This document shows, one piece after another, positions 5,058-36,520 of a stretch of 37,443 nt of DNA (its first letter is position 1; every line of letters starts with the position of its first letter). The DNA lies in NCBI GenBank assembly GCA_031763465.1, contig JARFOE010451567.1:1-37443 (forward strand), given 5' to 3'. A program made the translations under genes and the position numbers. This DNA comes from Squatina squatina. Lineage: Eukaryota. The notes beneath the pieces are model-generated. The model saw only the letters and a list, made by a program, of their open reading frames with translations, did not search any database and was not told where the DNA came from.

Positions 5058-5233
5058 AGTGCTTGGACCAATGTACTCGAGGACAGCTTACCGAGTTTTC
5101 TGGGAGGTTGGTTCAACTCAAGCTGGCAAAGGGAGAGTCACCAGGCTGAATCACTGGAGAGGAGATTGTTGTTGTACAGAGGATTGGGAGTGAGATAAGC
5201 TATAGAATAAAGAATAGTTCAGAAAATGAAAGC
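5058..5233 (+). mobile_element. Decayed CR1 ORF1-end / inter-ORF fragment, paralogous to about 18410-18590
   Basis: ggaccaatgtactc...ggttcaactcaagctggcaaagggag...gagaggaga...cagaaaatgaaa aligns by eye with gggatcaatggcctc...ggtttaagctaagctggtagggag...gagaggaga...cagaaatggaaa. Confidence 0.7.
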
Positions 5234-5284
5234 AGGCAAGAGATTGAGTGTGTGTATGACACGGCGAGGAAGAGAGAGGGCGGG

Positions 5285-5806
5285 CAATAAAGTGAGTGAG
5301 ATTTGCTCCAAAGCAACCCATGACAATGTGTGACGATGAACATCATGTCTATTTGTGTGTTAATATCTATTGTGGATTTGTGGATGCATTTTATTGCACA
5401 AATAATGCATCTGGCGGTGTTCTATTGTGTGCAGGGAGTTCCGTGGTTCACTTAATATTACACAGGGATTGGATAAATATTCACAGGGAGTTTCGATCAG
5501 CCAGTGGTCTGTAGAAGTGTTTTATTGGTTAATGTCAGCGATTGGCAGTCTCGGAGTGCAGCCAGAGTGTCTACATGAGTGAGTTAATATTAATCTCTGT
5601 TCTCTGTCAGAGTGTCAATATTCCTGAGCTCAGTGGGAGTGTTTTCAGGTGCACAGCTTGTTTGTGGCGGCGTGTTATGATGTATACTATGTGTCAGTGA
5701 ATCCGTTAATATTAACCTGCATCACTGGGCTGGTGGCGGAGAGCTGGTTGGTGAGACCATGAGGAGGAATTGAGTTCTGATGCTGCAAGGTCTTCAGTTG
5801 CTCTCA
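5285..5806 (-). repeat. Duplicated ~500-bp 3' flank (UTR-like) of the GPCR pseudogene, copy 1
   Basis: Collinear with 20613-21115 (same strand) and 35489-35990 (opposite strand). Shared blocks include gtgttaatat, aatattc(c/t)gagctcag(t/c)ggga and catcactggg. Confidence 0.85.
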
Positions 5807-6215
5807 TCAATTAATGCATTTTATAATTACAGTAAAGTGACGTAACACCATATTCTTCAACTGCTCTCTGGAATCAGACTGGGGAAGGGCAGAAATGCAA
5901 GTGTTTCTGCAGCAACTCAGGAGCTGGAGCATGAACCCCATTTGTTGCACAAAATAAAGTAGAGATGCAGACTCATACCTCAAAAGCCTCAACCACTCGC
6001 TTATAAGAAACACGATAACCACAGTCGATGACAGTATGATATTCCCAGAGACTTGGAAAAAGAATGTGTTGGATTTCGCTCAGTTCTCAAACGCTGGACC
6101 TCTCGGAATGTCCCCACTGCTGTGATCACAGACTCTCCTGCTTATTGTGCCAGCGACCAACATGTGTCTAATGGTGAAAACATTCAGCGATAGAATGAGA
6201 AGAAATGGGAACCAC
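5807..6215 (-). pseudogene. GPR139-like class A GPCR pseudogene, TM5-TM7 and C-terminus
   Basis: Minus strand reads PFLLILSLNVFTIRHMLVAG..SRR..DHSSGD.PRGP.FEN*..KS...VSGNIIL..VVIVFLI...MGFMLQLLSCCRNTCISA..Q...REQLKNMV...IN*, with an in-frame stop at 6080-6082 and a frameshift. This matches the recalled motif pattern of the expanded chondrichthyan GPR139-like receptors. Confidence 0.85.
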
Positions 6216-6329
6216 ATGTAGAATGTAAGGAAGGAACGCGCTGGCTGCCCAGACCTGTGATTGCAGAACAGCACGTTCCTTCCTTACATTCTAAATGTGG
6301 GTCCAATTTCGTCTTATTCAGTTGGTATC

Positions 6330-8590
6330 TCCCTTCTCTGTGTGGAGCTCAGCATCACACCAGGGTGAGAAAGAGCAACTCATTGGGCACAGACTGGGTA
6401 CGTAGTCTGGGAACAGCCTGCACCGTGTGTGTGGCTCAGTACAACACCGGGTGAGAGTGCACTGCTCACTGGGCACATCCAGAGACATAGATTGGGAAAT
6501 TTCTGCTCTGTCAGCGGCTCAGTTCCAGCGGGTGAGAGAGGGAAACTCACCCTCGTGCATGGAGACTGGAAACCTCAAGCTCTCTTTGTGGAATTGTGCA
6601 TGGCACCTGTATAGAGAGGTAGCACACTGGGGACAGGCCCATGGAGCCTGTGCTTTACAGCTCTGTGTATTGGTCACAGGACCAAACCGGTTGAGATTGG
6701 GAAACTCAATTGGCAAAGGCCGTGCAGGATTCTGTGATCTGTCTGCTTTGTGTGTGGAGCTCAAGACCACTCCGGGTGAGGGCAGTTCACTGGACAAATA
6801 GGGACTTATGGCCTGCGATCTACGTACACTGTGTGAGGCTCAGTAACACACCGGGTGAGATAGGGAACCCAATTGGCACAGGCAGTTCATGGAGCCTGGG
6901 ATGTTGCTGCTCTTTGTGCGGGACTCAGTAACACCCTGAGTGGAGCATCTTACCGGACACAGGTCAGGCATGGAGCAGGTAGCATCCTGCTCTCTGTCTG
7001 GGGCTCAGTATCGTACTGGGAGAGTTAGGGAACCTCACTGGGCAATGGCTTGCCGCGGTGCCTGGAATCTTACTTATGTGTGTGTGTGTCAGGCTCATTG
7101 ACACCTTGAGTATGGGCATCCCACTGGATACATGTGGAGCATGGACCGGCGATCGTTCTACCCCCTTTATGGTACTCAGTTCCACACCGGGTGTGGGAGG
7201 GCATCTCACTGGGTATTGGCGAGGCATTGAGTCTGGGATATGCCTGTCTTGTGTGTGGGTCTCAGTAATACACTGGGTGAGAGAGGCTGCTCACTGGACA
7301 TGGGATGAGCTTGGAGCCTGGAACTTTTCTGCTCTCTGTGTGTGGTCTCAGTAATGCACCAGATGAGAGAGGCTGCTCACTGGACATGGGATGACCTTGG
7401 AGCCTGGAACTTTTCTGCTCTCTGTGTGTGGTCTCAGTAATGCACCAGATGAGAGAGGCTGCTCACTATGCATGAGCTGAGTCTGGTGCCGGTGACTTTT
7501 TTGCTCTGAGTTTGTGGTCTCAGTGACATCACAGGTGACAGTGGCCAAGTTACTTGTCACGGGCCGAGCAAGGAGATTGGGAACTTCCTGGTCTGTTTGG
7601 TTCACACCGTTTAACTGTTGGAGAGAGAAGGCAACGCACTGGGCACATGTCGAGCATGGATCCTGGGATCATCCTGCCCCGTGTCTGACGTTCTATACCA
7701 CTCTGTATGAGAGGCCACAGGTCACTTGGAACAGGCCGGGCAAGGAGCCAGGGATATCCCTGCTCTGTGTGTCTTGCTGAGCCGCAAATGCGGGTGAGAG
7801 AGAGCGGCTCACGGGGCACAGGCAGGGCATGGAGCTTGGATCTTCCTCCCACTTTAGTGGGGCCCAGTATCCCAAGGGGTGAGACACGGCAGCTCACTGG
7901 CCACAGGCCGCACATGAAGCCTGATATCTTCCTGCTTTGAGTGGAGATCAGTAACAAACTGGGTGAGAGAGAGCAGCTCACTGAGCACAGGCCGGTCAGG
8001 GAACCTGGGAAAATCCTGCACCATTTGTGGGGCTCACTACAGCACCAGCTGTGATATTGGGCAGCCCCTGGGCACAGGCCAGGAAGCGAGCATGGGATCT
8101 TCCTGCTCTGTGAGTGTAGGGCTCACTAACCCCCTGGCAGATGGCACCACACTGAATGCATGTGGGGAATGGACCCTGGGAAAATCCTACCCAGAGCGTG
8201 GGGCTCACTACCATAGCGTAGAAGAGAGTTAATTTCAGTGGGCTCAGGACAGATATGGAGAGTGGGATCTTCCTACTCTCTGTGTAGGGCTCTGGATCAC
8301 AACTGCTGTTGGTAGCCCTCTGGGCACAAGCCAGACATGGTACCTGGGATCATCCTGGTCTATGTGAGAGAGAGCAGCTCTCTGCACACAGGGCGGGCAT
8401 GTAGCTTGGGCTCTTCCTGCTCTGTGCTGTGGAGCTCAGTACCTCACCAGATGACTCAGGGCAGCTCACTGGGCACAGGCCAGGAATGGAGTCGGGGATA
8501 CTCGTGCCCTGTGTTGTGCGGCCCAGGACCACAGCAGGAGAGGGAAGGTAGCTCACTGTGCACATGCTGAACATGTATCCTGGGATTTTC
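6330..8590 (+). repeat. ~86-bp satellite, second + strand block
   Basis: Same consensus as 561-5057 but more diverged. It includes a near-exact monomer duplication at 7278-7449. Confidence 0.93.
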
Positions 8591-8654
8591 CTCTCAATAA
8601 CAGTCAATAACAAACAATCCAATTTCTAGTTCTTGCGTTGAGGGGCGAAATGTC

Positions 8655-8777: not shown

Positions 8778-8894
8778 ATGGTTCTGCACATGTCACATCT
8801 TACCAGCTGAGCTCATGTTTATGACCTTGAATTGGGACCAAACAAACAACCTTGTCTTCTGAAAGATGGAGAACTGCCGGCTGAGTCCAGCTGC

Positions 8895-8984
8895 CCAATG
8901 ATCCACGTCACCCAGAGAGTAAACACCTTTTCCCAGGATATGGTCAGAGAGCAGAGCCACTCCCCATGTGTGTGTGATTATAAA
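8895..8984 (+). promoter_or_regulatory. Putative Pol II promoter: CCAAT, CCACGTCA (UPRE/XBP1-CREB3-type), forkhead GTAAACA, TATA box
   Basis: CCAAT at 8895-8899, CCACGTCA at 8903-8910 overlapping CACCC, GTAAACA at 8919-8925 and TATAAA at 8979-8984, about 80 nt upstream of a signal-peptide ATG. Confidence 0.6.
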
Positions 8985-9062
8985 GGCAGCAAACTCTCAG
9001 TGAGGATCCAGAGCATTTCTACTCCAGCCCCATGAATCTGACTCTGAAAAATTCAGCAGAAG

Positions 9063-9150
9063 ATGATGAAAGCTCTGCTTTTAATTCTTGGGTTCCTGGT
9101 GCTGACTCAGTCCAGCCCGTCCAGATGGTTTTATTTTCTACCCATACAAG
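9063..9150 (+). pseudogene. Orphan first coding exon of a secreted protein (signal peptide); no downstream exon found
   Basis: ATG ATG AAA GCT CTG... = MMKALLLILGFLVLTQSSPSRWFYFLPIQ, with a basic N-region, hydrophobic core and TQS cleavage-like site. It is followed by a phase-1 donor CAAG|GTAAAT at 9150/9151. Confidence 0.6.
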
Positions 9151-9222
9151 GTAAATGTCTCCGATTTCTCAGCAGCCAGTGTTTGGAAAGTGAGGTAATG
9201 TATTTTATTATGTTTTTGAGTG

Positions 9223-10340
9223 TCACATTTTAATTGGTTGAATGAAGATAAAGCTGCGATTCGAAGAATCTCTGAAGAATTTAACCTGATCCAGTTCCAC
9301 AGTAAATCCCCTGATTGTCCAGTGGGTAACTGAGCGGGTACAGGGAATGGTGGCTGTTGTTTGCTGCTCCGAACAGACCAGCCATAGATATATGTATTGC
9401 TGGCTGGTGCTGAGTGGGCAGTTCTCAGTTGAAGCATTGAGCTGGTTGGGAGAGTCTGTAATTGGCCCCAGTAACTCGGTGCTAGAGAGGGGAAAATACC
9501 AGTTGTTGTTCCCGATCACTGCTACCTGCTGCAAATTGTGACAGTTTGGACTCTTTTTGAGGACAGGTCCGGAATCTCCATCAGTCCCTTTTCCACTGCA
9601 CTCACTGTCCAGACCAATAGATGAAAATGGTGCTTTGGGAGCGATACCGGTGTTCTCTGTGGAACCTGTCCCCAGAGATGAATCAGCTTTCCATAAAATG
9701 AGGGCAGGGAATGCCCTCAAAGCTGTAAACACGTTTATTTAATTTTACTTGAACTGCAGCCTTCATAGAGTTCGGGATGTGAGAACAGGCACTAACTAGA
9801 TGAGGCAAGTGGTGAAGTGATTCGCTCAATAACTGGGTCCCAGTCTGACGCAGTAGGAAGTTGAGTGGACCAGTTGTGGTTTGATGTCCCACTCCAGTAC
9901 ATACAGACCTGCACTGGGAGAGTGCTGAAAAGTTGCAGTTGACAAACAATGACTGGGGGAGTGTTGCAATGTTGCATGTGACATCCCTGCGCTTGGGGAG
10001 CATTGCGAAGTTGGAAGTGACAGCCCAGCACCCGGGGAGTGATGCACTGTTGAAGGTGAGACCTCAGCGTCGGGGGTATGTTGCCTTTTGGAGGTGACAA
10101 TTCAGCACTGGGGAAGAGCTGCACTGTTGGCGGTGACAGTCCAGATTTGGGGGAGAACTGCGCGACTGCTGGTTACAGCCGAGCAATGAAATAGTGCTTT
10201 ACATTTGATGGGGACATATTGCAGTTGAAACATTGAATTGAGACCCGGGCTACCTGTTCATGTGGCAGGAAACATCTTTTGGAATTATTTGAAGATCTGG
10301 GAGTTCCCTGGATTCCTTGGACCAACATCACTCTGTCAAC
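9223..10340 (-). pseudogene. Probable decayed large coding exon of an unidentified Ser/Pro-rich protein
   Basis: Overlapping minus-strand open frames (10340-9826, 10003-9683, 9732-9223) with disordered-protein composition, and a codon-phased 39-bp repeat broken by one stop and one 1-nt deletion. The gene is not recognised. Confidence 0.45.
9904..10214 (-). repeat. Eight diverged 39-bp (13-codon) tandem repeats
   Basis: SPSNVKHYFIARL / *PAVAQFSPKSGL / SPPTVQLFPSAEL / SPPK-QHTPDAEV / SPSTVHHSPGAGL / SLPTSQCSPSAGM / SHATLQHSPSHCL / STATFQHSPSAGL. The span is 311 nt = 8x39-1. Confidence 0.85.
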
Positions 10341-11371
10341 GAACTTACCCAGAAACTCTCCATCTTGTCAAATCCCATTTGCTGTGTTTGGCAATTCGCT
10401 GTGTGCGGCCGTATTTCCTGCAAAACAGAGTCGACACTTCAGAAACAGTCTGTGAAACTCTTCGGGTCTTCTGATGCCAGGAAAGTTTATTTAGCAATGT
10501 CAGATATTTCCCCCCTGTGTCTCTGGTCTCAGGTCGTGGGTGTGGGCGGTTCCATTCTGAGCGAAATCTCTTGGGTTACCCTTTAGGGCAATGACTGGGT
10601 CTGTACAGGTTGGGCGATGGAGAGCGGTGTGGGATTATATTAAGTATGAAAGAGTTAATGGCCATGTGTTTTCCAGAGACAGCCCCCAAATCAGTGATGG
10701 ACTCAGCTTCATAAATTCTCATTCTCAACTATCCGTCTGTGAACAGAACCATTAATCAGTTGATTCTTTATTCTGGTTTATAGAACGTTGCGCTCTCTGG
10801 CAAGCAGGAGCATGTCGTGTCAATTGTAATGCAGACGAGAGGACCATACATGGCAATTTCTGCGACGGTGGGCTCAGATGTTGCCAACCGATGGAGTAAA
10901 AGATCCGGTGATGGATTCCCACCAGGCTGAGCTCTCCACTTTCTCACTGAGTGATACCTTGTGGTCACGGGTAGCAGTTTCTCTATGATTGTTCATAACT
11001 CGTAACCCCTGACCCGGTAATACTGCTGTCTGAATAATAGGATGTACTCATAAATAAAACTTACTGCATTTGTCACAGCTACACATCCGTGTCTTGTTTC
11101 TCTTTTGGATCAGTGTGGGGATTACAAGGTGTTTGGGGTGGCATAAGGCTGGAAAAAGATATTGGAATCACAGGAAATGGGATGATGATGCACCACTGAA
11201 ATTATCTCTGCAAAGTGCCTGATGCATCCAGAAATGTATTGAGATAAGTTCTGTGTTCCAGAGTGTCAGCACACTGACCGTTCAGGGTTAGGGTTTCTCA
11301 GTTGAAAGAGTTTGTTCAGGCAGGTTGATGCAGACATACATCATGGCGGATCCAGAGACTGATTCGTGGGA

Positions 11372-11582
11372 AAGTGCAGAGGGAGCTTTACACTGTATCT
11401 AACCAGTCGTACAGTTACCTTTGGAAGTCTTTGATGGGAGAGTAAAGAGGGAGCTTTTCACTTCTTTTTACCATCCTTTACCTGCCCTGGGAGTTTTGAT
11501 GTGTCAGTGCAGAGGGAGCTTTACCCGCTCTGTTCCATTCTGTATCTACCCTTGGGATTCTTTGCCAGCACAGTATAGAGTA
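11372..11582 (+). repeat. About three decayed copies of a ~70-bp repeat (AGAGGGAGCTTTAC...CCTGGGAG..TTTGATG..ACAGTG)
   Basis: agagggagcttt recurs at about 11378, 11446 and 11511, each followed by ..cctg/ttggga..tttgatg. It resembles a common shark interspersed tandem repeat (recalled, not verified). Confidence 0.75.
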
Positions 11583-12265
11583 GGGGTGGGCCATTATTTG
11601 TGCGGGAGCACCAGTTAACAAGGTTGTGCTGAGCGGTGGAGAATCGCTCACCAATGTACCCACTGAGGGGCGAGTTCTGGCGTTCAGAGAACAATCGCCA
11701 GGTCACGTGCAGTCGCCTCAACAATGACACACGAATAACATTTATTGTCTTCACAGAAAACATTAAAGTTTATTAGTGGGGAATGAGAGATGGATTCTGC
11801 TTCCACTGCCAGTTGTAAACAAGTATCAGGCACAATCACAGCTAAAATTATTTTCACATTTAAAAATTGAACATGAAAGTCCAACTTTGATGGTTTTCAA
11901 AGTGGCTGAGAAATAATTACATGCCTCACAAGATAATTTGAACTGCAAATTGATACCCTGGTCAGCCATCAAATTGGGCTTGTTCATTGTCAACGTGTTT
12001 CCACTCCTGAGAAAAGCCAAGATGCCTGTAGAGTTTGCAGACATTCCCTGGAGAATCGCCACAAGTCAAGCAGCATTATAGTGCTCGCCTCCATCGCAAC
12101 TGCTGTCCGGTTCCATTTTTAAACAATAATCGATTAATTGTTGATGGAGAAAGCACAACGTTATCACAATGAAACACATTTGGAAAACTCACTATGTACA
12201 CCAATCTGATGTATTTTCTCACAAGGGTGATGCATAATTTTACTGTTTAGTTCCATTCCTTACAG

Positions 12266-12722
12266 GTAACCTGAATTTAATTGTGACCCAACACAAGAAA
12301 ACTGTGGTCTCTCCAAATGGGTCACTCATCACCTGGTGCCCATGGCAGTGCCAGATCGATTGGTCATTATCATCATCCTGATATGGAGGCTGTTTCCCGT
12401 GCTTATTTGGATCATGTTTTTGTGCTCCAATTCATTTTGCAGAAAATCCCAGTTTGTAAAGCTTATGCCATCCTGCTTCATGCAGTCACAGAATGTTCTG
12501 TTTGGTTCACATTGAATTTCGGCTTTGATCGATTTGTGACCAGATGTTGCCAGAAGCTGCAAATTTTAATCTTGCACCGAGACACCGGCAGCTGTGTTTC
12601 TGGGTGCAGTGAAACTGCTGAGCTTCTTAAAGTAATATTTTTGGTGTTCTATATTAAAAGGACGATACTGGATTCTACTTGTCTTTCCTTTTGTTATGGA
12701 AACTTTTTCGGGATTTGCATCA
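12266..12722 (+). pseudogene. GPR139-like GPCR pseudogene, 5' part of main exon (TM1-TM4)
   Basis: Acceptor ttccattccttacag| at 12265, then NL..IV...NCGLSKWVTHHLVPMAVPDRLVII...IPVCKAYAILLHAVTECSVWFTLNFGFDRFVTRCCQKL...CTE..AAVFLGAV..LS.LK. Contains the DRF motif and several frameshifts. Confidence 0.9.
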
Positions 12723-13609
12723 GTACCTGAAGGAAATAAAGTTGCACAACTATGGGGGAAGGGCGGGGGGAGTGGGTCTTGCTGTAAACCGGCACGGGCT
12801 CTTCCGGTCGAATAGTCTTCTTCCATTCTGTAACATTTCTATGATTCTATGAATTAACCCACATTAATCATCACGCTCCAGGCATTTACGCAGATGCACT
12901 ATGAGCCCATCTTAGCCTCCCTCTCATTTCCCCCAGCTGTCTCCATTTCTGAATTGCTCTTTATTTGAATGCTGTTTTCACTTCAGTCCCCTGTACAACT
13001 TGTATCCCACCTCCAATGCTCATCCTGGTAACCCTCCGCCTGCCAGCTTAGTGTAAACCATCTCCCACAACACCCGCTGAGCTGTCCACGAGGACAGAGG
13101 TCCCAGCACTCTTGAGCTGTGATGTGTCCGTCCTACACTTCCGTCCTGCCACAGGAATCTGAAGGCTGACCAGCTTGCTGGCTTCAGTAGATTGCATCCC
13201 AGTATTTAAAGGGATTAAAGTAGGAAAATAGTTTGTGCTTTAAACAGAATCTTCCAAAGCTCTCTCGATTCAGCAATTCTCACTACAGGTATCGTTGGTG
13301 GAATTTTATGTGAAGTTCCAAAACGGATTTCGATACGGTTCCTGAAGTGACTTTTGGCGAAAATTATTGAGTAAGCAATTGCATTCCAATTATGGACCTA
13401 GTTCGGAGATTGGATTGGCAGTGGAGGACAGAGAGTAGGGGGAATGGTTATCTACTCAAATTTCAGGGAATTGACGAGTGGTGTCTACTAGGCTCTGTGC
13501 TGGACCCACAACTGTTCACTATAATTACTATTGACTTAGAGAAAAGAATGCAGAGATATATATCCTGCTTACAGCCACATGGGCAGCGAAGTTGTCAATG
13601 ATTTCCAGT

Positions 13610-13880
13610 TTCTGGAGGGTAGATCTGTGGAGACTGGCAGGAGGGCAGTGGCATAGTCAAGGCTGGCGGGTTAAAGGCACTGATGAGGGCGGAGACAGGT
13701 GATATTACAAAGTTAGAAATGGGCGATCTTTGTAATAGAACGCAAATGAGGTAGTTAGATCAATTTGTGATCAAATATGACACCAAGATTGCGAACAGGA
13801 TTGGTCATCCTTGGACTTTTGGTGGGTAGAGCAATTGAATATATGTGAAGGGCATGAGTATGTGCCGTTCAAGCCCGGCA
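13610..13880 (-). mobile_element. L2-clade LINE RT C-terminal fragment (in copy A)
   Basis: gatcaaatatgacaccaagattgcgaac is antisense VRNLGVIFD and is identical to the block in 15425-15810. Confidence 0.75.
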
Positions 13881-14360
13881 TGCGTCAAGGGAGCTGCCCT
13901 CTCTCACTCTGTCGTGTACTAAGCCCACACACTGAGCAGGCAGATGCCAGGCTCCATGTCCATCGTGTGTACAGTGAGCATTGCTATCTCACCCATTGTG
14001 GTACTGAGCCCCCCAAACACAGCAGGAAGGTCCCAGGTTCAATATCTGGCCTGTGTTGAGTGAGCTACTCTCTCTCACCAGGTGAGGCAATGAGCCCCAC
14101 ATTTATAGCAGGATGAACTCAGGCTCCAATCCTGGCCTGTGCCCATTGCCCTGCCCTCATCTGTTGTGTCACTGAGCCACTAATATGGAACATTAAGATC
14201 CACTACTTCATGCCAGGCCTGTGCCCTCTGAGCTGCACTCTCTGAAACGGTGGGTTAATGATCTCCAGACCAAGGGGAACATTTTCTCAGCCTCCATGAG
14301 TGGCCTGTGCCCAGTCAGCTGCCCTCTCTCACTCATTGTTGTACTGAGCCGCACACAGAG
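13880..14360 (-). repeat. 86-bp satellite, reverse orientation
   Basis: gagctgccctctctcac...gtactgagcccc...gcagg...ccaggctccat units. Confidence 0.9.
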
Positions 14361-15424
14361 ATGGATCACTATATCATAATCCCATGTGAGTGCTTCCATG
14401 TTCAAAATCATGAGGGGTCTGGAAAGAGTAGAGATAGAGAAACTGTTCCCATTAGCGGTAGGATCGAGAAGCAGAGGACACAGATCTATGGTGATTAGCA
14501 AATGAAGCAAAGGTGGTGGAAGAAATACTTTTTTACACAACGACTGTTTGGGATGTGGAATTACCTGCCTGAAAGATGGTGGAGGTAGACTCAATCTTAA
14601 CTTTCAAAAGGTAGTTTGGTGAGAAACAGAATGATATTTTTCTGCAGAGCGACGGGGAAAGGGCGGGGGGAGGGGGATTAGCTGAGAGCTGGAATGGGCT
14701 CAACATGTCGAATGGCTTTCTATCGTGTTATTTCCATTCTATGATTCTAAGAATTCAGCAACATTAATCACTGAACTCCAGGCAATTATGGACATTCGCT
14801 CTGAACACATGTCATCCTCCCTCGCATTTCCCGCATCAGATTCCATATGTGAACCATCCTTTATTCTATTGCTGATATCTCTCCCAGTCCACTATACATA
14901 TCTCAGCTCCACTGTATCATCCTGGTCCCTGTCCCTCTGCCAGCTTATTGGCAACCATCTCCCACAACACACACGGTGAGCTGCCCATGAAGACATTGGT
15001 CCCAGCACTGTTTAGAGACTAATTTACTGGCCTGGTCAGATTGCACCCCAGGGTTTCTCAAGGATTAACTGAGAAAGCTTGCACGTGTTTTAACCGTCAT
15101 CTTCTGGAGCGATCAAGATTCATGAATTCTCCCTTTAGAATGTCTGTCGGGGTATTTTGTGTCATCATCCAGAGGGCATTCGATAAGATTCCTGTGAGAA
15201 TCTGTTGGATAATAATGCTCAAAACATTGAAGACAAATTATGGACTTGTTCGGAGATTGGATAGGCGGTGGATGTCTGAGAGTGAGGAACATGGTTGTGT
15301 TCTCAGTTTGAAGGGAAGTGACTCCTGGTGGCCAAAAGTGTCTGTGCTGATTCTACAACTGTTCACTAAAATTACAAATGACTGAGATCGAACAGTGCAG
15401 AGCCATATCACCAACTTACTGGCA

Positions 15425-15810: not shown

Positions 15811-15824
15811 TAGAAAAAAACCAC

Positions 15825-16400: not shown

Positions 16401-16429
16401 ATGGTTCACTATTTCATCAACCCAGGTGA

Positions 16430-19613: not shown

Positions 19614-19669
<56 letters not shown>

Positions 19670-23629: not shown

Positions 23630-24029
23630 CTGAGAAAGAGAAATGAACAGTGAAATTATACATCACACTTAGGCGAAAAGTTATCAGTTTGACGGAACAC
23701 ACAGCCTGATTTGCAAAAATCTTACTGTATCCAGTGATGTATTGAAATGATCATTCCTGGAATGTACTTGGATATTGCGACAAGAATGACTGTTCATCCT
23801 GTGATCGGTTTATCTGTTGGAAACAGGGATTACATTCAATGAATTCAACCATTAAATGTGAAATAATATTTTCGAGGAATTACTCATGAGGAATAGCACT
23901 TGAGATGAGATCAGTTAACGGTCGCAGTTATTTCATGGTCCAGTGTCAAGAGCTATTAGTTGCAGCAAATAATAACGTTCACAATAGCTAAACATCCCTA
24001 GGGAGAAGTAGAGCTGAGCTCAGTGAGTC

Positions 24030-25034: not shown

Positions 25035-28000
25035 AACAGAAACCATGAGCTGGGTTGTAGAATGGACCAGTGAGCAGCGAGCATGGACAGTATACATCCA
25101 GAAACCATGAGCTGGGTCGGATAATTGACCAGTGAGCAGGGACTGAGGTCAATATCCAACCAGAAACATGAGCTGCGTTAGAGAATGGACCAGTTAGCAG
25201 GGAGTGTGAACAGTATCCTCCCAGAAACCATGAGCACGGTTTGAGAATGCACCATTGAGCAGTGTATGTGGACAGGATCCACGCAGAAACAATCAGCTGG
25301 GTTGGAGAATGAAGCAGTGAGCAGCGAGTGTGTACAATATCCACCCAGAAATAATGAGCTGGGTTGGAGAAAGGGCCAGTGAGCAGGGATTGTAAACAGC
25401 ATCATCCCAGAAAGCATGAGCTGGGTTGGAGGATGGACCAGTGAGCAGCGAGTGTGGACAGTATTCACCCAAAAACAATGAGCGGGGTTGGAGAATGGTC
25501 AAGTGAGCAGCGAGTGAGGACAGTATTCACCCAGAAACAATGAGCTAGGTTGGAGAATGGAGCAGTTAATCGTAAGGTTGGACAGTATCCACCAAGAAAG
25601 CAAGAAAAAGGTTGGAACATTTACCAGTTAGAAGTGACTGTGGACAGTATCAATCCAGAAATGATGAGCTGGTTTGGAGAATGGAGCAGTGAGCAGCGAG
25701 TGTGGACAGTATCCACCCAGAAACCATGAGCTGTGTTGGAGAATGGACCTGTGAGCAGCGAGTGTGGACAGTATCCACCGAGAAACCAAGAGCTGGGTTG
25801 GAGAATGGACGAGTGAGCAGCGTGTACGGAAGTTATCCACCCAGAAACAATGAGCTGGGTTGGGGAATGGACCAGTAAGCAGCGAGCATGGACGATATCC
25901 ACCCAGAAACCATGAGCTGGGTTGGAGAATGGACCAGTGAGCAGGGAGTGTAGACAGTATCCTCCCAGAAAACATGAGCTGGGTTGGAGAATGGATCAGT
26001 GCGCTCTGAGTGTGGAAAGTATCCACCCAGAAACCATGAGATGGGCTGGGGAATGGACCAGTGAGCAGGAGGTGTGGATAGTGTCCAACCAGAAACCATG
26101 AGCTGGGTTGGAGAATGGAGCAGAGAGTCGGGAGTGTGGAAAATATCCAGACAGAAACCAGGAGCTGGTTTGGAGAATGGAGCGCAGAGTCGGGATTGTG
26201 GACATTATCCACCCAGAAACAATGAGCTGGGATGTAGAATGGACCAGTGAGCAGCGAGTGCTGACAGCATCCACACAGACACCATGAGCTGGGTTGGAGA
26301 AAGGACCAGTTAGTCGTAAGTGTGGACAGTATCCACCCAGAAGGCAAGAAAAGGGTTGGAGAATGGATCAGTTTGTCGGGAGTGTGGACAGTATCAACCC
26401 AGAAGCGATGAGCTGGGTTGGAGAATGGACCAGTGAGCAGCGAGTGTGGACAGTAACCAACCAGACACCATGAGCTGGGTTGTAGAATGGACCAGTGAGC
26501 AGGGACTGAGGTGAATATCCTACCAGAAACATGAGCTGCGTTGGAGAACGGACCAGTGAGCAGGGAGTGTGAACAGTATCCTCCCAGAAGCGATGAACAG
26601 GTTTTGAGAATGCACCATTGAGCAGTGTATGTGGACAGGATCCACCCAGAAACCATGAGCTGGGTTGGAGAATGAACCAGTGAGCAGCGAGTGTGGACAG
26701 TATCCACCAGAAACAATGTGCTGGGTTGGAGAATGGAACAGTGAGCAGCGAGTGTTGACAGCATCCACCCAGAAACAATGAGATCGTTGGGAGAAAGGGC
26801 CAGTGAGCAGGGATTGTAAACAGTATCCTCCCAGAAACCATGAGCTGGGTTGGAGAATGGAGCAGTTACTCGTAAGTTTGGATAGCATCCACCAAGAAAG
26901 CAAGAAAAAGGTTGGAACATCTACCAGTTAGAAGTCACTGTGGACAGTATCAATCCAGAAATGATGAGCTGGTTTGGAGAATGGACCAGTGAGCAGCGAG
27001 TGTGGAAAGTATCCACCTAGAAACCATGAGCTGTGTTGGAGAATGGACCTGTGAGCAGCGAGTGTGGACAGTATGCACCCAGAAACCATGAGCTGTGTTG
27101 GAGAATGGACCAGTGAGCACGGTGTGTGGACAGTATCCAACCAGAAACCATGAGCTCGGTTAGAGAATGGAACAGTGAGCAGGGACAGAGGTCAGTATCC
27201 TACCAGAAACATGAGCTGGGTTGGAGAATGGACCAGTGAGCAGGGAGTGTGGACAGTATCCTCCCAGAAACCATGAGCTGGGTTGGAGTTTGGACCAGTG
27301 AGCAGGGAGTGTGGACAGTGCCCACCCAGAAACCATGAGCTGGTTCCGAGAATGGGCCAGTGACCAGCGACGGAGGACAGTATCCACCCAGAAACAATGA
27401 GCTGTGTTGGAGAATGGAGCAGTTAGTCGTGAGTGTGGATGGTATCCACCCAGAAACCATGAGCTGTGTTGGAGAATGGACCAGTGAGCAGGGAATGTGA
27501 ACAGTATCCACCCAGAAACCATGAGCAGCGTTTGAGAATGCATCATTGAGCAGTGTCTGTGGACAGGATACACCCAGAAACAATCAGCTGGGTTGGAGAA
27601 TGAACCAGTGAGCAGCGAGTGTGGATAATATCCACCCAGAAACAATGAGCTGGGTTGGAGAAAGGGCCAGTGAGCAAGGATTGTAAACAGCATCATCCCA
27701 GAAACCATGAGCTGGGTTGGACAATGGACCAGTGAGCAGCGAGTGTGGACAGTGTCCACCCAGAAACAATGAGCTGGGTTGGAGAAAGGGCCAGTGAGCA
27801 GGGATTGTAAATAGTATCATCCCAGAAACCATGAGCTGGGTTGGAGTTTGGAGCAGTGAGCAGGGAGTGTGGACAGTGTCCACCCAGAAACCATGAGATA
27901 GTTTCTACAATGGGCCATTGAGCAGCGACTGAGGACAGTATCCATCCAGAAACCATGAACTGTGTTTGAGAATGGAGCAGTTAGTCGGGAGTGTGGAGAG

Positions 28001-31000
28001 TATCCAGCCAGAAACCATGAGCTGTGTTGGAGAATGGAGCAGTTAGTCGTGAATGTGGACAGTATCCACCCAGAAACCATGAGCTGTGTTGGAGTATGGA
28101 CCAGTGAGCAGGCAGTGTGGACAGGGTCCACCCAGAAACCATAAGCTGGTTTGGAGAATGGACCAGTGAGCAGCGTGTTTCGAAAGTATCCACCCGGAAT
28201 CCATGACCTGGGTTGGAGAATGGTCCAGTGATCAGGGAGTGTGGAAAGTGTCCACCCAGAAGCCAGAAGCTGGTTTGGAGTATGGGCCAATGAGCAGCGA
28301 CTGAGGAGATTATCGACCGAGAAACCATGAGCTGGGTTGGAGAATGGACCAGTGAGCAGCGAGTGTGGACAGTATCCACCCAGAAACAATGAGTTGGGTT
28401 GGAGAAAGGGCCAGTGAGCAGGGATTGTAAATAGTATCATTCCAGAAACCATGAGCTGGTTTGGAGAATGGACAATTGAGCAGCGAGTGCTGACAGTATG
28501 CGCCAAGAAACTCATGAGCTCGGTTGGAGAATGGAGCAGTTAGTCGTAAGTTTGGATATTATCCACCAAGAATGCAAGAAAAAGGTTGGAACTTCCACCA
28601 GTTAGAAGTGACAGTGTACAGTATCAATCCAGAGATGATGACTAGTTTAGAGAATGGACCAGTGAGCAGCGAGTGTGGACAGTATCGACCCAGAACCAAT
28701 GAGACTGGTTTGGAGAAAGGGCCAGTGAGCAGGGATTGTAACCAGTTTCATTCCAGAAACCAAGAGCTGGGTTGGAGAATGGAAAATGAGCAGCGAGTGC
28801 TGACAGTATTCCCCCAGAAACCATGAGCTGGGTTGGAGAAGGAAAAAGTTAGTCTTAAGTGTGGACAGTATCCACCAAAAAAGCAAGAAAATGGTTGGAA
28901 AATATACCAGTTAGACGGGAGTGTGGACAGCATCAATTCAGAAAAGATGAGCTGGGTTGGAGAATGGACCAGTGGGCAGCGAGTGTGGACAGTATCCAAC
29001 AAGAAACCATGAGCTGCGTTGGAGAATGCACCAGTGAGCAGCGAGTATGGAATGTATCCACCCAGAAACAATGAGCTGGGTTGGAGAATGGACCAATGAG
29101 CAGCGAGCGTGGGCAGTATCCAGCGAGAACCCATGAGCTGGGTTGGAGAATGGAACAGTGAGCAGGGACAGAGGTCAGTATCCTACCAGAAACATGAGCT
29201 GGCTTGGAGAACAGACCAGTTAGCAAGGAGCGTGGACAGTATCTTCCCAGAAACCATGAGCTGGGTTGGAGTTTGGACCAGACAGCAGGGAGTGTGGACA
29301 GTGTCCACCCGAAACCATGAGCTAGTTTCTACAATGGGTCATTGAGCAGCGACTGAGGACAGTATCCATCCAGAAACCATGAACTGTGTTTGAGAATGGA
29401 GCAGTTAGTCGGGAGTGTGGAGAGTATCCAGCCAGAAACCATGAGCTGTGTTGGAGAATGGAGCAGTTAGTCGTGAATGTGGACAGTATCCACCCAGAAA
29501 CCATGAGCTGTGTTGGAGTATGGACCAGTGAGCAGGCAGTGTGGACAGGGTCCACCCAGAAACCATAAGCTGGTTTGGAGAATGGACCAGTGAGCAGCGT
29601 GTTTCGAAAGTATCCACCCGGAATCCATGACCTGGGTTGGAGAATGGTCCAGTGATCAGGGAGTGTGGAAAGTGTCCACCCAGAAGCCAGAAGCTGGTTT
29701 GGAGTATGGGCCAATGAGCAGCGACTGAGGAGATTATCGACCGAGAAACCATGAGCTGGGTTGGAAAATGAACCAGTGAGCAGCGAGTGTGGACAGTATC
29801 CACCCAGAAACAATGAGCTGGGTTGGACAAAGGGCCAGTGAGCAGGAATTATCGACAGTATCATCCCAGAAACCATGAGCTGTTTTGGAGAATGGAAATT
29901 GAGCAGCGAGTGCTGACAGTGTTCACCCAGAAAGAATGAGCTGGATTGGAGAATGGAGCAATTAGTCATAAGTGTGGACAGTATCCACCAAGAAAGCAAG
30001 AAAAAGGTTGGAAAATATACCAATTAGATGTGAGTGTGGACAGTATCAATCCAGTAACAATGAGCATGGTTTGGAGAATGGAGCAGTTAGTCGGGTGTGT
30101 GGACAGTATCCACCCAGAAACCATGAGCTGGGTTGGAGAAAGAACAGTGATCAGGACTGAGGTCAGTATCCTACCATAAACATGAGCTGGGTTGTAGAAT
30201 GGAGCAGTGAGCAGGGAGTGTGGACAGTATACTCTCAGAAACCATGAGCTTGGTTGGAGTATAGACCAGTGAGCAGAGAGTGTGGACCGTGTCCACCCAG
30301 AAACGATGAGCTGGGTTCAAGAATGGGCCAGTGAGCAGCGACTGAGGACATAAGCCACCCAGAAACCATGAACTGGGTTGGAGAATGCAGCTGTTAGTCG
30401 GGTGTGTGGACAGTATCCACCCAGAAACCATGAGCTGGGTTGGAGTATGGACGAGTGAGCAGGGAGCGTGGACCGTGTGCACCCAGAAACCATGAGCTGT
30501 GTTGGAGAAAGGACCAGTGGGCAGCGGGTGTGGACAGTATCCAACTAGAAACCAAGAGCTGGGTTGGAGAATGAACCAGTGAGCAGCGAGTATGGAAGGT
30601 ATCCAGCCAGAAATAATGAGCTGGGGTGGAGAATGGACCAGTGAGCAGCGAGCGTAGACTGTATCCACCCAGAAACCATGAGCTGGGTTCGAAAATGGAA
30701 CAGTGAGCAGGGACTGAGGTCAGTATCCTACCAGAAACATGAGCTGGGTTGGAGAACGGACCAGTGAGCAGGGAGTGTGGACAGTATCTTCCCAGAAACC
30801 ATGTACTGGGTTGGAGTATGGACCAGTGAGCAGGGAGTATGGACAGTGTCCACCGAGAAACCATGAGCTGGTTTCTAGAATGGGCCAGTGAGCAGCGACT
30901 GAGGACAGTATCCACCCAGAAACCATGAGCTGTGTTGGAGAATGGAAAAGTGAGCAGCGATTGCTGACAGTATTCACCCCGAAACCATGAGCTGGGTTGG

Positions 31001-33603
31001 AGCCTGCAGCAGTTAGTCATATGTTTGGACAGTCTCCACCAAAAAGAAAGAAAAAGGTTGGAAAATATCCAGTTAGAAGTGAGTGTGGACAGTATCAATC
31101 CAGAAACGATGAGCTGGGTTGGAGAAGGGACCAGTGAGCAGCGAGTGTGGACAGTATCCACCCAGAAAACATGAGCTGGGTTGGAGAATGGAACAGTGAT
31201 CAGGGACTGAGGTCAGTATCCTACCAGAAACATGAGCTGGGTTGGAGTCTGGAGCAGTGAGCAGGGAGTGTGGAAAGTGTCCACCCAGAAACCATGAGCT
31301 GGTTTCGAGAATGGGCCAGTGAGCAGCGACTGAGGACATTATACACCCATAATCCATGAACTGGGTTGGAGAATGGAGCAGTTAGTCGGGGGTGTGGACA
31401 GTATCCACCCAGAAACCATGAGCTTGGTGGGATTCTGGACCAGTGAGTAGGGAGTGTGGACAGTGTCCTACCAGAAACCATGAGCTGGTTTCGAGAATGG
31501 GCCAGTGAGCAGCGACTGAGGACATTATACACCCAGAAACCATGAACTGGGTTGGAGAATGGTGCAGTTAGTCAGGGCTGTGGACAGCATCCACCCAGAT
31601 ACCATGAGCTAGGTTTGAGAATGCACCAGTGAGCAGTGTATATGAACAGAGTCCACCCAGAAACAATCAGCTGGGTTGGAGAATGAACAAGTGAGAAGCG
31701 AGTGTGGACAGTATCCACCCAGAAACAATGAGCTGAGTTGGAGAATGGGCCAGTGAGAAAGGATTGAAAACAGTATCATCCCAGAAACCATGAGCTGGGT
31801 TGGAGATTGGACCAGTGAGCAGCGAGTGTGGAGTGTATCCACCCAGAAACAATAAGCTGGGTTGGAGAAAGGGCCAGTGAGCAGGGATTGTAAGCAGTAT
31901 CATCCCAGAAACCATAAGCTGGTTTGGAGAATGGACAAGTGAGCAGCGAGTGCTGACAGTAGCCACCCAGAAACCATGAGCTGGGTTGGAGAATGGAGCA
32001 GTTAGTCGTCGGTGTGAACAATATCCACCAAGAAAGCAATAAAAAGGTTGGAAAATATACCAGTTAGAAGGGAGTGTGGAATGTTTCAATTCAGAAACGA
32101 TGAGCTGTGTTGGAGAATGGCCCAGTGCGCAGCGAGTGTGGACAGTATCCAACTAGAAACCAAGAGCTGGGTTGGAGAATGGACCATTGAGCAGCGAGTA
32201 TGGTAGTTATCCACCCAGAAACAATGAGCTGGGTTGGAGAATGGACCAGTAAGCAGCGAGCGTGGAGAGTATCCACCCAGAAACATGAGCTGGGTTGGTG
32301 AATGGACCAGTTAGCAGGGAGTGTGGACAGTATCCTCCCAGAAACCATGAGCTGGGTTGGAGACTGGAGCAGTTATTCGTATGTTTGGACTGTATCCACC
32401 AAGAAAGCAAGAAAAAGGTTGGAAAATATACCAGTTAGACGTGAGTGTGGACAGTATCAATCCAGAAACGATTAGCTGGGTTGGAGAATGGACCAGTGAG
32501 CAGCGAGTTTGGACAGTATCCACCCAGAATCCATGAGCTTGGTTGGTTAATGCACCAGTGAGCAGCGAGCGTGGACAGTATCCACCCAGAAACCATGAGC
32601 TGGGTTGGAGAATGGAACAGTGATCAGGGAGTAAGGTCAGTATCCTACCAGAAACATGAGCTGGGTTGGAGAATGGACCAGAGAGCAGGGAGTGTGGACA
32701 ACATATTCCCAGAAATCATGAGCTGGGTTGGAGTATGGACCAGTGAGCAGGGAGTGTGGACCGTGTGCACCCAGAAACCATGAGCTGGTTTCGAGAATGT
32801 GCCAATGAGCAGCGACTGAGGACAGTATGCACCCAGAAACCATGAACTGGGTTGGAGAATGGAGCAGGTAGTCGGGTGTGTGGACAGTATCAAGCCAGAA
32901 ACCATGAGTTTGGTTGGCGTATGGACCAGTGAGCAGGGAGTGTGGAAAGTGTCCACCCAGAAACCATGAGCTGGATTCGAGATTGGGCCAGTGAGCAGCG
33001 ACTGAGGACAGTATCCACCCAGAAACCATGAACTGGGTTGGAGAATGGAGCAGTTAGACGGGTGTGTGGATAGCATCCAGCCAGAAACCATGAGCTGGGT
33101 TGGAGAATGGAGCAGTTAGTTGTGAGTGTGGACAGTATCCACCCAGAAAGCAAAAAAACGTTTGGAGAATGGACCAGTGAGCAGGGAATGTGGACAGTAT
33201 CCTCCGAGAAACCATGGGCTGGGTTGGATAATGGACCAGTGAGCAGCGAGTGTGGACAGTATCCACCCAGAAACCATGAGCTGGGTTGGAGAATGGAACA
33301 GTGAGCAGGGACTGAGGTCAATATTCTACCAGAAATATGAGCTGCGTTGGAGAATGCACCAGTCGACAGGGAGTGTGGACAGTATCCTCCCAGAAACCAT
33401 GAGCTAGGTTTGAGAATGCACCAGTGAGCAGTGTATATGGACTGTATCCACCCAGAAACAATCAGCTGAGTTGGAGAATGAACTAGTGAGAAGCGAGTGT
33501 GGACAATATCCATCCAGAAACAATGAGCTGAGTTGGAGAAAGGGCCAGTGAGAAAGGATTAGTAACAGTATCATCCCAGAAACCATGAGCTGGGTTGGAG
33601 AAT
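25035..33603 (+). repeat. 62-bp satellite array, about 138 monomers, with higher-order structure
   Basis: Consensus CAGAAACCATGAGCTGGGTTGGAGAATGGACCAGTGAGCAGCGAGTGTGGACAGTATCCACC. CAGAAAC recurs at 25037, 25099 and 25161. Confidence 0.98.
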
Positions 33604-33720
33604 GCAGGAACAGGGTACTGAATTCCGATGATCAGCCATGATCATATTGAATGGGTGAGCAGGCTCAAAGTGCCAAATGGCCGATACCTGCTCCTATTTT
33701 CGATGTTTCTATGTTTCTAT
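33597..33720 (+). mobile_element. CR1 3' UTR and tail fragment
   Basis: gcaggaacagggtactga...tcagccatgatcatattgaatgg...ggcc...ctgctcctatttt..atgtttctatgtttctat, the same family as 22680-22796. Confidence 0.9.
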
Positions 33721-33739
33721 CCGATGTAGTAGGGATCAC

Positions 33740-35022
33740 CATAAGTGGAGCAGGAAGATCCCAGTCACCGTGCCGGGCCTGTGCCCAGTGCACTGCCCTC
33801 TTTCACCTGGTGTGACACTGAGCCCCAAACAGAGCAGGAAGTTCCCAGGCTTCATGTGTGGGCGGTGCCCCCTGAGTAGCCCTCCTCACCAGGTGGGATA
33901 CTGAAACCGACGTTTGGGATAGGAAGAGGCCAGGCTCCAAACCCGGCCTGTGGCTAGTGAGCTGCCTTCTCTCACCCCGTGTGGTACTGAGCACCACACT
34001 CAGAGCAGGAATATCCCAGGCACTATGCCCGGCCTGTGCTCAGTAAGATTCCCTCCGTTATGTGGTGTGGTGCAGAGCCGCAGGCACTGAGTAGGAATTT
34101 CCCAGGATCCTTGCCCCACATGCATCAAAAGGGAGGCCCTCACCCAGGTTGGTACTGACCCCTACACATAGAGAGCAGGAAGATCCCAGCTCCATGCTGA
34201 GCCTGTAACAAGTGATCTGCCCTCTCTCATCTAGGTTTGTCCTGAGCCCCACACACACAGAGCAGGAAGATCCCAGGCTCCATGACTGGCAAGTGCCCAG
34301 TGAGCAGCCCTTTCTCATCCTGTGTTTTACAGAGCCCCAGACACGGGGCTGGAAGAGCCCAGGGTCCATGTCCTGCCTAGGTCCAGAGAGATGCCCTTGC
34401 TCAGGGTGAATGAGCTCCACCCATAAGGCACATGAAGAATACTGGCAAGTGCCCACTGGGCTGCCATCTCTCATCCAGTGTGGTACTGATCCTGACACCC
34501 GCGGCAGAGATTTCCCAGGCTACATGCCCGGCCTATGCCCAGTGAGCTGTCATCTCTCACCCGGTGTGGGACTCAGCCCCACACATAGAGCGCAGGAAGA
34601 TCCCAGGCTTAAGCCGGTCTGTACCCAGTGTGCTGTCTTCTCTCTTGCTGTGGTACTGCACACAACTCACAGCCCAGGAGGATTCCAGGTTCCATGCCCC
34701 GCAATGTGCCATGAGATCCCCTCACTCAATGCGGTACTGAGCTCCACACACACAGAGCAGAACGTTCCCAGCCTCCATTCCTGTCCTGTGCCAAGTGTGT
34801 GCTCTCTGTCAACCAGCGCGTTGCCCCACAAACAGAGCACAGCAATATCCCAGACTCAGTGACCAGCCAGAGCCCAATTAGCTTCCCTCTCTCACCCGCT
34901 GTAGTACTGAGACCAACACAGGTTGCAGAAACATTACAAATTCTATATCCGTCCTTTGCCCAGTGAGCCGCACTCTCTGACCCAGTGTGGTACTAAGCCC
35001 CACACAGAGCAAGAAAGTACCA
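33740..35022 (-). repeat. 86-bp satellite, reverse orientation
   Basis: gagcaggaagatcccaggctccatg...gtgcccagtgagc.gccctctctcacc units. Confidence 0.93.
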
Positions 35023-35024
35023 GG

Positions 35025-35488
35025 TGGTGTTCTGGAATCAAAAGACTGGGAAGCAATCACAATTCTTAATTACATTATAAATCCGGGGGCCCATTGTTCT
35101 CATTCTGCTGCTCAGTGTCTTAACAATCAGGCACATGTTGCTGCTAGCAGAGACTGAACGAGACACCGGGATCACAGCAGGGGGAAAATCCCAGAGACCC
35201 AAAGATGGAGAGCTGAAGTCAATCCATCATTTTCTTTTTCTTGTCTCTGGGAATGACATACTGTTATGAACTGTGTATATCCTCTTTCTCCTAAGTGAAT
35301 TAATGAGGCTTTTGTGGCATGTGTCTGTATCACTACATTATTTTGGGAAAGACATGAGTTTCATGCTCCAGCTCCTGAGTTGCTGCAGAAACATCTGCAT
35401 TTGTGCCATTACCCAGTCGAAGTTCAGAGAGCAGTTAAAGAATATGGTGAAATATCAATTTACTGTAATTGAAAAATACATTAATTGA
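35025..35488 (+). pseudogene. GPR139-like GPCR pseudogene, ECL2/TM5 to stop
   Basis: WEAITILNYIINP..PIVLILLLSVLTIRHML...DPKMES*SQSIIFFFLVSGNDILL*TVYILFLL...MSFMLQLLSCCRNICICAITQSKFREQLKNMVKYQFTVIEKYIN*. Contains stops and frameshifts. Confidence 0.88.
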
Positions 35489-35990
35489 TGAGCACACTGA
35501 AGTCTTTGCAGCAACAGAACTAATTTCCACCTCAGATTCTCACCGGCCCACTCTCCGCTGCCATCCCAGTGATGTCGGTTAATATTAATGCACTAACTGA
35601 CACACTGTCTACATCATAATCCGCCACCAGGGCCACGCTGCCTTCTTTAAAACGCTCCCACTGATCTCAGGAATATTAACACACTGACAAATACCACAGG
35701 CAGGTGAAGATCAATTGACTCACTGAATCACTGTGTCTGCCTACTGGACCACCAAAGGCTGACAGCAGGCAATAAAACACTCCCACTGACACTCGGCTGA
35801 ACGAAACACGCTGTGTTCTATAAACTGAATCAGAGAACACCTTGAACACAATCTAGCACCAACAGATCCATTCTTTGTGCAAACAAATTCTCGCACGAAT
35901 ACACAATAAATATGAACACATATAAAGAGACATATTTTTTCATAGTAGCACACTGTCATGTGTTCCGTTGGATATATCACACTCACTCTA
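35489..35990 (+). repeat. Duplicated GPCR 3' flank, copy 3
   Basis: Reverse complement of 5285-5806 and 20613-21115. Contains AATAAA at about 35771 and 35905. Confidence 0.85.
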
Positions 35991-36520
35991 TTGCTTCGCT
36001 CCTCTCCCTCTTGCTCTCTCACGCACACACGCTCACTCTCTCGCCTGGCCTGCCTCACCTTACACACTCGTCTCTCTAACACACACACTCACTCAAACTC
36101 CTGCTCTCAAATAATCTTCATTGTTANNNNNNNNNNNNNNNNNNNNNNNNNNNNNNNNNNNNNNNNNNNNNNNNNNNNNNNNNNNNNNNNNNNNNNNNNN
36201 NNNNNNNNNNNNNNNNNNNNNNNNNNNNNNNNNNNNNNNNNNNNNNNNNNNNNNNNNNNNNNNNNNNNNNNNNNNNNNNNNNNNNNNNNNNNNNNNCTCC
36301 CTCACTCTCTTTCACCCTCTCGCTTGGTCTGCCTCGCTCTCTTTCTACCTTGCTGACACTCTCTCTCTCAACCCTCCTGCCTCACCTCCCTTTCTCACGT
36401 TATCTCTACCGACTGGCGTCCCTCACATGCCTCTTTCCGTTTCTCTCTCTCAATCACTCTCTCGCTTCGCCTGCCTCACCTCATTCGCTCCCTCTCGCAG
36501 ATGCTCACTCTCTCACCTGG
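35990..36520 (+). repeat. CT-rich low-complexity tract (CTCTCGCCTGGCCTGCCTCAC motif) containing a gap
   Basis: Reverse counterpart of 19597-20612. Confidence 0.9.
36127..36296. other. Assembly gap (170 N)
   Basis: Run of N. Confidence 1.

What the first reader, a model, noticed from the sequence alone, without database searches (positions are those of the whole stretch)
5058..36520. Satellite-associated duplicon that has amplified and scrambled a GPR139-like receptor gene
Seen: four GPCR copies with shared flanks can be reassembled into one ancestral cassette. Read in GPCR sense it runs: intron, main exon, 500-bp flank, CT-rich tract, CR1 EN(-), CR1 3' end(+), CR1 ORF1 end(-), RT piece(+), L2(-), 86-bp satellite(-). 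The copies are 6215->5058 (minus, internally deleted), 11845->14390 (plus, TM5 to EN deleted), 23870->17870 (minus, most complete) and 35025->36520 (plus). Inference: the receptor exon is a passenger in a segmental-duplication unit propagated within satellite-rich chromatin. This is a possible mechanism for the large birth-and-death GPR139-like family annotated in cartilaginous fishes (recalled).
Basis: partly seen in the sequence, partly recalled or inferred. Interest (0 to 1): 0.7.

Follow-up and report, generated by a model that had tools for sequence, protein, structure and literature searches.

The report
Old shark repeat carrying dead receptor
In this shark-type genome, an already broken receptor gene was copied at least 40 times along with satellite DNA and jumping-gene debris, likely by unequal crossing-over long ago, which left a graveyard of fragments and not the large working receptor family.

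Summary
The cassette is real; the proposed role is not supported. Four pieces of a shark 'GPR139-like' receptor exon lie in the window with shared flanks and LINE-LINE junctions, 66-74% identical. The same unit occurs on other contigs, head-to-tail at about 6-8 kb.

All cassette copies form one clade (40 of 108 tips, support 100) that holds 0 of 44 intact genes. Only 1 of 44 intact genes has the satellite nearby. All 10 clade copies covering TM1 share a 1-bp frameshift that 41 other copies lack, so the founder was dead before amplification. Nineteen copies, including window copies A and D, begin at one satellite|codon-152 junction; the 15 tested decay at the neutral rate.

The 86-bp satellite is a tandemised piece of the tRNA-like head of a dispersed SINE-like repeat.

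Verdict: an old composite tandem repeat or duplicon that multiplied a pseudogene. It adds deaths, not births, to the family. The scan noted satellite-led dead copies of this family, and shark SINE-derived minisatellites, in other genomes.

The parts
596..5061 (-). 86-bp satellite arrays, interrupted by a CR1 3' piece (2293-2655) and a 33-bp minisatellite with N (4348-4802)
5053..5232 (-). remnant of the 'mid' LINE piece, joined to the CT tract of copy A by a deletion
5336..5791 (-). shared 3' flank of copy A
5807..6276 (-). receptor copy A, codons ~152-308, starting at the shared satellite junction (about 47-bp local duplication at the join)
6323..8592 (-). 86-bp satellite array upstream of copy A
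8801..11840 (+). unidentified co-amplified 3-kb module (matches on about 40 contigs, one on a 6.4-Mb scaffold); holds a SINE-like body at 9399-9648; no Pfam hit
12198..12667 (+). receptor copy B: intron end and codons to ~140; carries the clade's 1-bp TM1 deletion (near 12286) and the codon-107 stop
12712..14361 (+). CR1 tail, mid, RT piece, L2 piece, satellite (unit 1)
14367..17740 (+). two further receptor-free units sharing a satellite|CR1 junction; sister copies in the tree, 74% identical
17850..19559 (-). EN piece, CR1 tail, mid, RT piece, L2 start of copy C; inverted against the satellite at about 17745
19581..21110 (-). CT-rich tract and shared 3' flank of copy C
21117..23696 (-). receptor copy C: intron end to codon ~91 and codons ~230-308, separated by CR1 pieces (21341-23385); carries the 1-bp TM1 deletion
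25037..33604 (.). 62-bp satellite, 138.5 copies; not part of the unit, but found on two other cassette contigs
33719..35024 (+). 86-bp satellite array ending at the shared junction
35024..35945 (+). receptor copy D (codons ~152-308) and 3' flank
36532..37443 (+). CR1 piece inserted in the CT tract, a mark of the junction lineage

Best explanation
This is an old composite repeat in which one frameshifted receptor pseudogene, LINE debris and a SINE-derived 86-bp satellite were copied together at least 40 times, likely by microhomology joins followed by unequal crossing-over. Order of events. (1) Shown: one member of the shark 'GPR139-like' family lost a base in TM1. (2) Shown: it was copied with its flank, CT tract and LINE pieces. 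One branch took a deletion of codons 74-194. (3) Inferred: a tandem duplication joined the satellite to codon ~152, probably through a 3-4-base microhomology. That lineage also carries a CR1 insertion in the CT tract. This made a 6-8 kb head-to-tail unit. (4) Inferred: a burst of unequal exchange spread it, leaving a star-like tree about 17% from consensus, roughly 10^8 years ago on a published chimaera SINE rate. (5) Shown: later CR1 insertions, deletions, inversions and younger duplications (88-95% identity) scrambled it. The receptor DNA is neutral cargo and makes no receptor.
For: One clade, 40 of 108 tips, UFBoot 100, with 0 of 44 intact genes (the same). 1-bp TM1 deletion in 10 of 10 clade copies and 0 of 41 others. 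Same satellite phase and receptor position at the junction in 19 copies on 15 contigs. Head-to-tail units on C386075 (6.2 kb), C127 (7.9 kb) and C353153 (5.7 kb), and a satellite-to-satellite unit on C302807. Intron end kept. Neutral decay in 15 junction copies: 0.146/0.150/0.155 at codon positions 1/2/3, flank 0.146, dN/dS 0.81 against a neutral simulation of 0.74-0.98; the 11 nearest intact genes give 0.122/0.089/0.156. Satellite within 5 kb: 20 of 40 clade copies, 1 of 44 intact, 0 of 24 others.
Against: All clade copies lie on contigs under 38 kb, so one array versus many sites cannot be told. Neighbouring receptor units on a contig are not each other's closest relatives, which simple stepwise tandem growth would predict; age may have erased this. 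Half of the clade copies show no satellite in the DNA held, including the codon 74-194 deletion branch, so the satellite is not needed for copying. The genome searches scored only the best candidates (150 of 333), so an intact gene inside the cassette could be missed. The satellite association is one evolutionary event, not independent repeats.
Confidence: 0.85

Rival explanations
1. The cassette is the engine of birth and death in the intact GPR139-like family.
For: The family is large: 150 matches in this genome and 2,398 protein clusters. One intact gene, C661990, has six satellite-like units 2.1 kb downstream. A few intact genes share the 3' flank.
Against: 0 of 44 intact genes are in the clade, and none has EN, mid or the RT piece downstream in its own sense. 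The founder was frameshifted. The array at C661990 lacks the cassette-type motif in 6 of 6 units. The flank is ordinary 3' sequence inherited by the subfamily.
Confidence: 0.04
2. The unit is a non-autonomous mobile element (Helitron-like or a CR1 3' transduction) that captured a receptor fragment.
For: Fixed junction, star-like burst, internal tandem repeat, and a sense CR1 3' piece after the flank in 9 of 11 junction copies.
Against: Shared sequence continues past that CR1 tail into EN and onward, so copies do not end there. The intron end is kept. Units are head-to-tail with no fixed outer ends. None was found on a megabase scaffold. Helitron termini were not searched for.
Confidence: 0.07
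3. The amplified fragments are kept for a non-coding role, such as small RNA or a decoy acting on the intact family.
For: The satellite, in the sense of its SINE-like source, reads into the receptor's sense strand at all 19 junctions.
Against: That is one origin. The monomer lacks the A-box region and has a decayed B box. Exon and flank diverge equally.
Confidence: 0.03
4. The scrambling is an assembly artefact.
For: Fragmented assembly (1.15 million contigs) and N stretches in the window.
Against: Copies are about 70% identical and easy to separate. Junctions recur on up to 15 contigs. Separate contigs at 88-95% identity carry the same stretches, four of them for 9.8-10.3 kb.
Confidence: 0.01

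Closest known systems
Composite repeats / macrosatellites of T2T-CHM13, e.g. LSAU-beta/D4Z4 and TELO_Comp (10.1101/2021.07.12.451456; 12 passages read)
   Same: A unit of three or more repeats (TEs, simple repeat, satellite) with captured exon sequence, in tandem arrays, attributed to unequal crossing-over.
   Different: Here units are only about 72% identical (they report 80-100% for LSAU arrays) and heavily rearranged. The captured exon was dead before amplification.
SINE-derived satellites of squamates (PMC10702118; abstract and Discussion read)
   Same: The tandem unit is a part of a dispersed SINE, with low homogeneity.
   Different: Shark, not squamate. The arrays are embedded in a larger composite and form its key junction. 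A longer terminal unit reaching the SINE end was not tested.
SacSINE1 / Deu-domain SINE of sharks (PMC5499810; parts 1-2 of 6 read, supplement not available)
   Same: Old tRNA-headed SINE of about 460 bp in sharks. The dispersed source element here has A- and B-box-like motifs and about 400 aligned columns.
   Different: Identity is by recall only; no reference sequence was compared.
Shark proteins annotated 'probable G-protein coupled receptor 139'
   Same: The nearest intact gene is 71-79% identical to most of the 120 best hits and passes Pfam 7tm_1.
   Different: It matches the solved GPR139 chain only weakly (E 2.7e-7), so the name is likely an automatic label for an expanded paralogue family. 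The window's copies are pseudogenes.

Membership tests
Composite tandem repeat (T2T definition) | [quoted passage not shown] | tested here: met
   satellite, CT tract and five to six LINE pieces
Composite tandem repeat (T2T definition) | head-to-tail arrangement | tested here: met
   two successive units on C386075, C127 and C353153; three LINE-satellite units in the window
Composite tandem repeat (T2T definition) | not retrotransposed | tested here: met
   intron end kept; shared sequence continues beyond the CR1 tail
Homogenised macrosatellite | concerted evolution, high unit identity | tested here: not met
   median pairwise identity 0.73 and 0.72
Segmental duplication (over 1 kb, over 90% identity; definition recalled) | identity above 90% | tested here: not met
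   main burst about 72%; met only by a younger pair, 3.1 kb at 92%
SINE-derived satellite | monomer homologous to part of a dispersed SINE | tested here: met
   whole monomer aligns to the consensus of 23 dispersed copies, score 78 against a maximum of 32 in 500 shuffles; each dispersed locus has at most one monomer hit
SINE-derived satellite | source is a tRNA-derived SINE of a named family | tested here: inconclusive
   A- and B-box-like motifs read by eye; Rfam gave no tRNA hit; ARAGORN hits only at a relaxed threshold
SINE-derived satellite | subtelomeric location | not testable with these tools
   cassette-type arrays were found on short unplaced contigs
Class A GPCR gene | intact 7TM reading frame | tested here: not met
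   all four window copies are truncated or broken; met by the intact relative (7tm_1, 61.4 bits)
GPR139 orthologue | single-copy gene with strong similarity to mammalian GPR139 | tested here: not met
   E 2.7e-7 only; at least 150 matches in this genome; synteny not tested
Helitron or other DNA transposon with captured gene | fixed termini or target-site signature | not tested
   no fixed outer ends seen in the module maps; no motif search was made

The most novel reading that the evidence does not exclude
A SINE-born satellite fused to a dead receptor exon became a self-propagating heterochromatic unit that is still duplicating (88-95% pairs). It may mark a sex-linked, B or germline-restricted block in sharks, and its transcripts could act as small RNAs on the shark's large orphan receptor family.
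Probability: 0.07. Interest if true: 0.65.

Novelty: new variant of a known kind. Interest (0 to 1): 0.3.

Why it matters
It shows that pseudogene counts in this receptor family are inflated by one dead founder copied at least 40 times, so pseudogene fractions misstate receptor turnover. It extends SINE-derived satellites to a shark; the squamate paper says it is uncertain whether they occur elsewhere. The shared lesions give an unusually clear order of events for an ancient composite repeat. It reveals no new function. The larger lead is the intact family itself, for which my searches found no paper by title or abstract start.

Tried and rejected
Sequencing runs for 34700-36050: none was listed, so there was no read or RNA test. 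Rfam and default ARAGORN found nothing in the window; Rfam on four SINE-like loci gave only chance-level hits. Pfam on 16 window ORFs found no GPCR or LINE family. Six-frame scans of the 8801-11840 module and its scaffold copy found nothing, and the Atlas search was uninformative. Exon 1 of the receptor was found beside several intact genes but not convincingly beside any cassette copy; decay could hide it. Stops at codons 218 and 247 (20 and 16 of 32 copies) were rejected as founder lesions: they look like recurrent CpG decay, and the deletion branch's consensus keeps Arg. Haplotigs were rejected for the 88-95% partners of 9.8-10.3 kb, because four distinct copies exist; they remain possible for single partners. 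Paper searches listed nothing on a chondrichthyan GPR139-like expansion (titles and abstract starts only). Searches listed nothing on this cassette or satellite. The supplement of PMC5499810 could not be read and may hold the SacSINE1 consensus.

Full report
1. Observation. The window is contig C451567 of a 1.5-Gb assembly in 1,152,659 contigs; homologues point to a shark. An intact gene from contig C312464 (308-codon open frame) maps the pieces: A and D hold codons ~152-308, B the intron end to codon ~140, C the intron end to ~91 and ~230-308. All are broken. The intact relative passes Pfam 7tm_1. It has 2,398 database relatives at E<=1e-20; the 120 listed are all shark proteins named 'probable GPR139'. 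It matches the solved GPR139 chain only at E 2.7e-7.

2. The unit elsewhere in the genome. Searches with the exon (150 of 333 candidates scored), flank (40 of 45), satellite (40 of 136), LINE block (40 of 446) and junction (40 of 43) were followed by fetching contigs. Module maps show the order satellite, receptor 3' half, flank, CT tract, CR1, EN, CR1 tail, mid, RT piece, L2, satellite. It repeats head-to-tail on C386075 (EN to EN 6.2 kb), C127 (7.9 kb) and C353153 (5.7 kb). The LINE names are my reading of translations from recalled motifs. The CT|EN junction is conserved in the copies printed. Of 29 other contigs listed by the satellite search, 14 carry a cassette module (one doubtful) and 6 a receptor piece; among the 10 of at least 5 kb, 9 carry a module.

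3. Shared lesions give the order of events. (a) A 1-bp deletion in TM1 is present in 10 of 10 cassette-lineage copies that cover the site, including B and C, and in 0 of 41 other copies. No compensating change is seen in the alignment. The founder was therefore a pseudogene. (b) One branch shares a deletion of codons 74-194 with a 3-base microhomology (6 copies so classed). (c) The other branch shows a stop at codon 107 in 4 of 5 copies covering it. (d) Nineteen copies on 15 contigs, including A and D, start at the same receptor position directly after the same satellite phase; C203572 was assigned by eye from 44 upstream bases. Unjoined clade copies read ACAAG, ACATG or ACAAG at that point and the satellite CCAGG, which fits a 3-4-base microhomology; this is inferred. 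(e) A CR1 piece sits in the CT tract in 9 of 11 junction copies with enough sequence, and in 0 of 5 copies whose flank runs straight to EN. So C is an older type of unit than A and D.

4. Relation to the intact family. Of 113 receptor loci in the DNA held, 108 entered the tree. Five rows were dropped as too short; one of them, C318029, was mis-binned as intact because of a LINE frame and fell in the clade. Forty tips form one clade (UFBoot 100) with no intact gene; 44 intact and 24 broken or partial copies lie outside. The sister is a dead copy on a 4.7-Mb scaffold without the frameshift or satellite. Satellite within 5 kb: 20 of 40, 1 of 44, 0 of 24. With at least 1 kb held on both sides: 12 of 14, 1 of 18, 0 of 10. 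This is one origin, so I give no weight to the Fisher P values. The exception, C661990, lacks the cassette-type motif. In the 15 junction copies of the first alignment, divergence is equal at the three codon positions and in the flank, and dN/dS 0.81 lies inside a neutral simulation (0.74-0.98); the 11 nearest intact genes show constraint at position 2. The cassette multiplied a dead gene.

5. Age. Junction copies are 0.155 from their consensus (JC 0.17, n=19), and the trees are star-like. On the chimaera SINE rate of 1.0-1.1e-3 per site per million years (PMC5499810, part 2) this is about 160-170 million years. The slower elasmobranch rate quoted there gives implausible ages, so only the order of magnitude holds. 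Younger duplication also occurred: separate contigs match parts of the window at 87-95%, and four distinct copies of 9.8-10.3 kb exist. The inversion near 17745 is absent from the 89% partner C336784 and from the other full units, so it is derived.

6. The satellite. 191 monomers average 79% identity to their consensus. A motif search gave 6 matches, 4 of them single, non-tandem sites. One of these found 40 of 40 scored dispersed relatives, several on megabase scaffolds. The consensus of 23 such loci has A- and B-box-like motifs, and the whole satellite monomer aligns to the part from mid-head into the body (score 78; shuffle maximum 32). This fits the SINE-derived satellites described for squamates (PMC10702118, abstract and Discussion). 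That the source is SacSINE1 is recalled, not tested.

7. Mechanism and rivals. Best reading: microhomology joins made a satellite-bounded unit, and unequal exchange amplified it in repeat-rich chromatin, as proposed for human composite repeats (10.1101/2021.07.12.451456, passages). Against a simple stepwise array, receptor units on the same contig are not sisters, though the two receptor-free units in the window are. A mobile element is unlikely but Helitron ends were not searched. Location on chromosomes cannot be judged: all clade copies are on contigs under 38 kb, but so are most intact genes.

8. Literature and earlier notes. Searches listed no paper on this receptor expansion; those none on this cassette (titles and abstract starts only; subscription papers are largely not searched). 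PMC6504862 (2 passages) and PMC12642534 (5 passages) and PMC10468316 (1 passage) added nothing specific. Earlier scan notes from other genomes describe satellite-led dead copies of this family with a different, 26-bp repeat and shark SINE-derived 33-bp minisatellites; I did not check them.

9. Verdict. A real, well-resolved ancient composite repeat carrying a pseudogene. A new variant of a known kind, with no function shown. Interest 0.3.

Noticed in passing
genome-wide; e.g. L044:702-1625 and the 44 intact loci: A large two-exon class A GPCR family labelled GPR139 by databases (2,398 clusters), only weakly like true GPR139, with dN/dS about 0.4-0.5 against its consensus. It is a candidate chemosensory or immune receptor expansion; no paper was listed in four searches.
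   Followed up: partly
window 8801-11840: Unidentified 3-kb module with matches on about 40 contigs and a single copy about 19 kb from a family member on the 6.4-Mb scaffold C203, a possible source locus.
   Followed up: partly
C1126794, C502800, C476236 (L128, L130, L131); window 23900-24350: The codon 74-194 deletion branch has a different tandem repeat of about 220 bp upstream of the exon, and a younger sub-burst at 90-94% identity.
   Followed up: partly
window 25037-33604: 62-bp satellite of 8.6 kb with strong strand asymmetry; also on cassette contigs C483854 and C318029.
   Followed up: partly
L049:5588-6078 and L319:4723-5148: Small arrays related to the same SINE head at other loci, one on a 4.7-Mb scaffold; possibly independent origins of a satellite from this SINE.
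   Followed up: partly
window 17745-17850 and L116:3468-3645: The same short GC-rich repeat lies at or near the break with the high-identity partner in both places.
   Followed up: no
window 4348-4802: 33-bp minisatellite at 94% identity grown from part of the 86-bp monomer, a young expansion in an old array.
   Followed up: no
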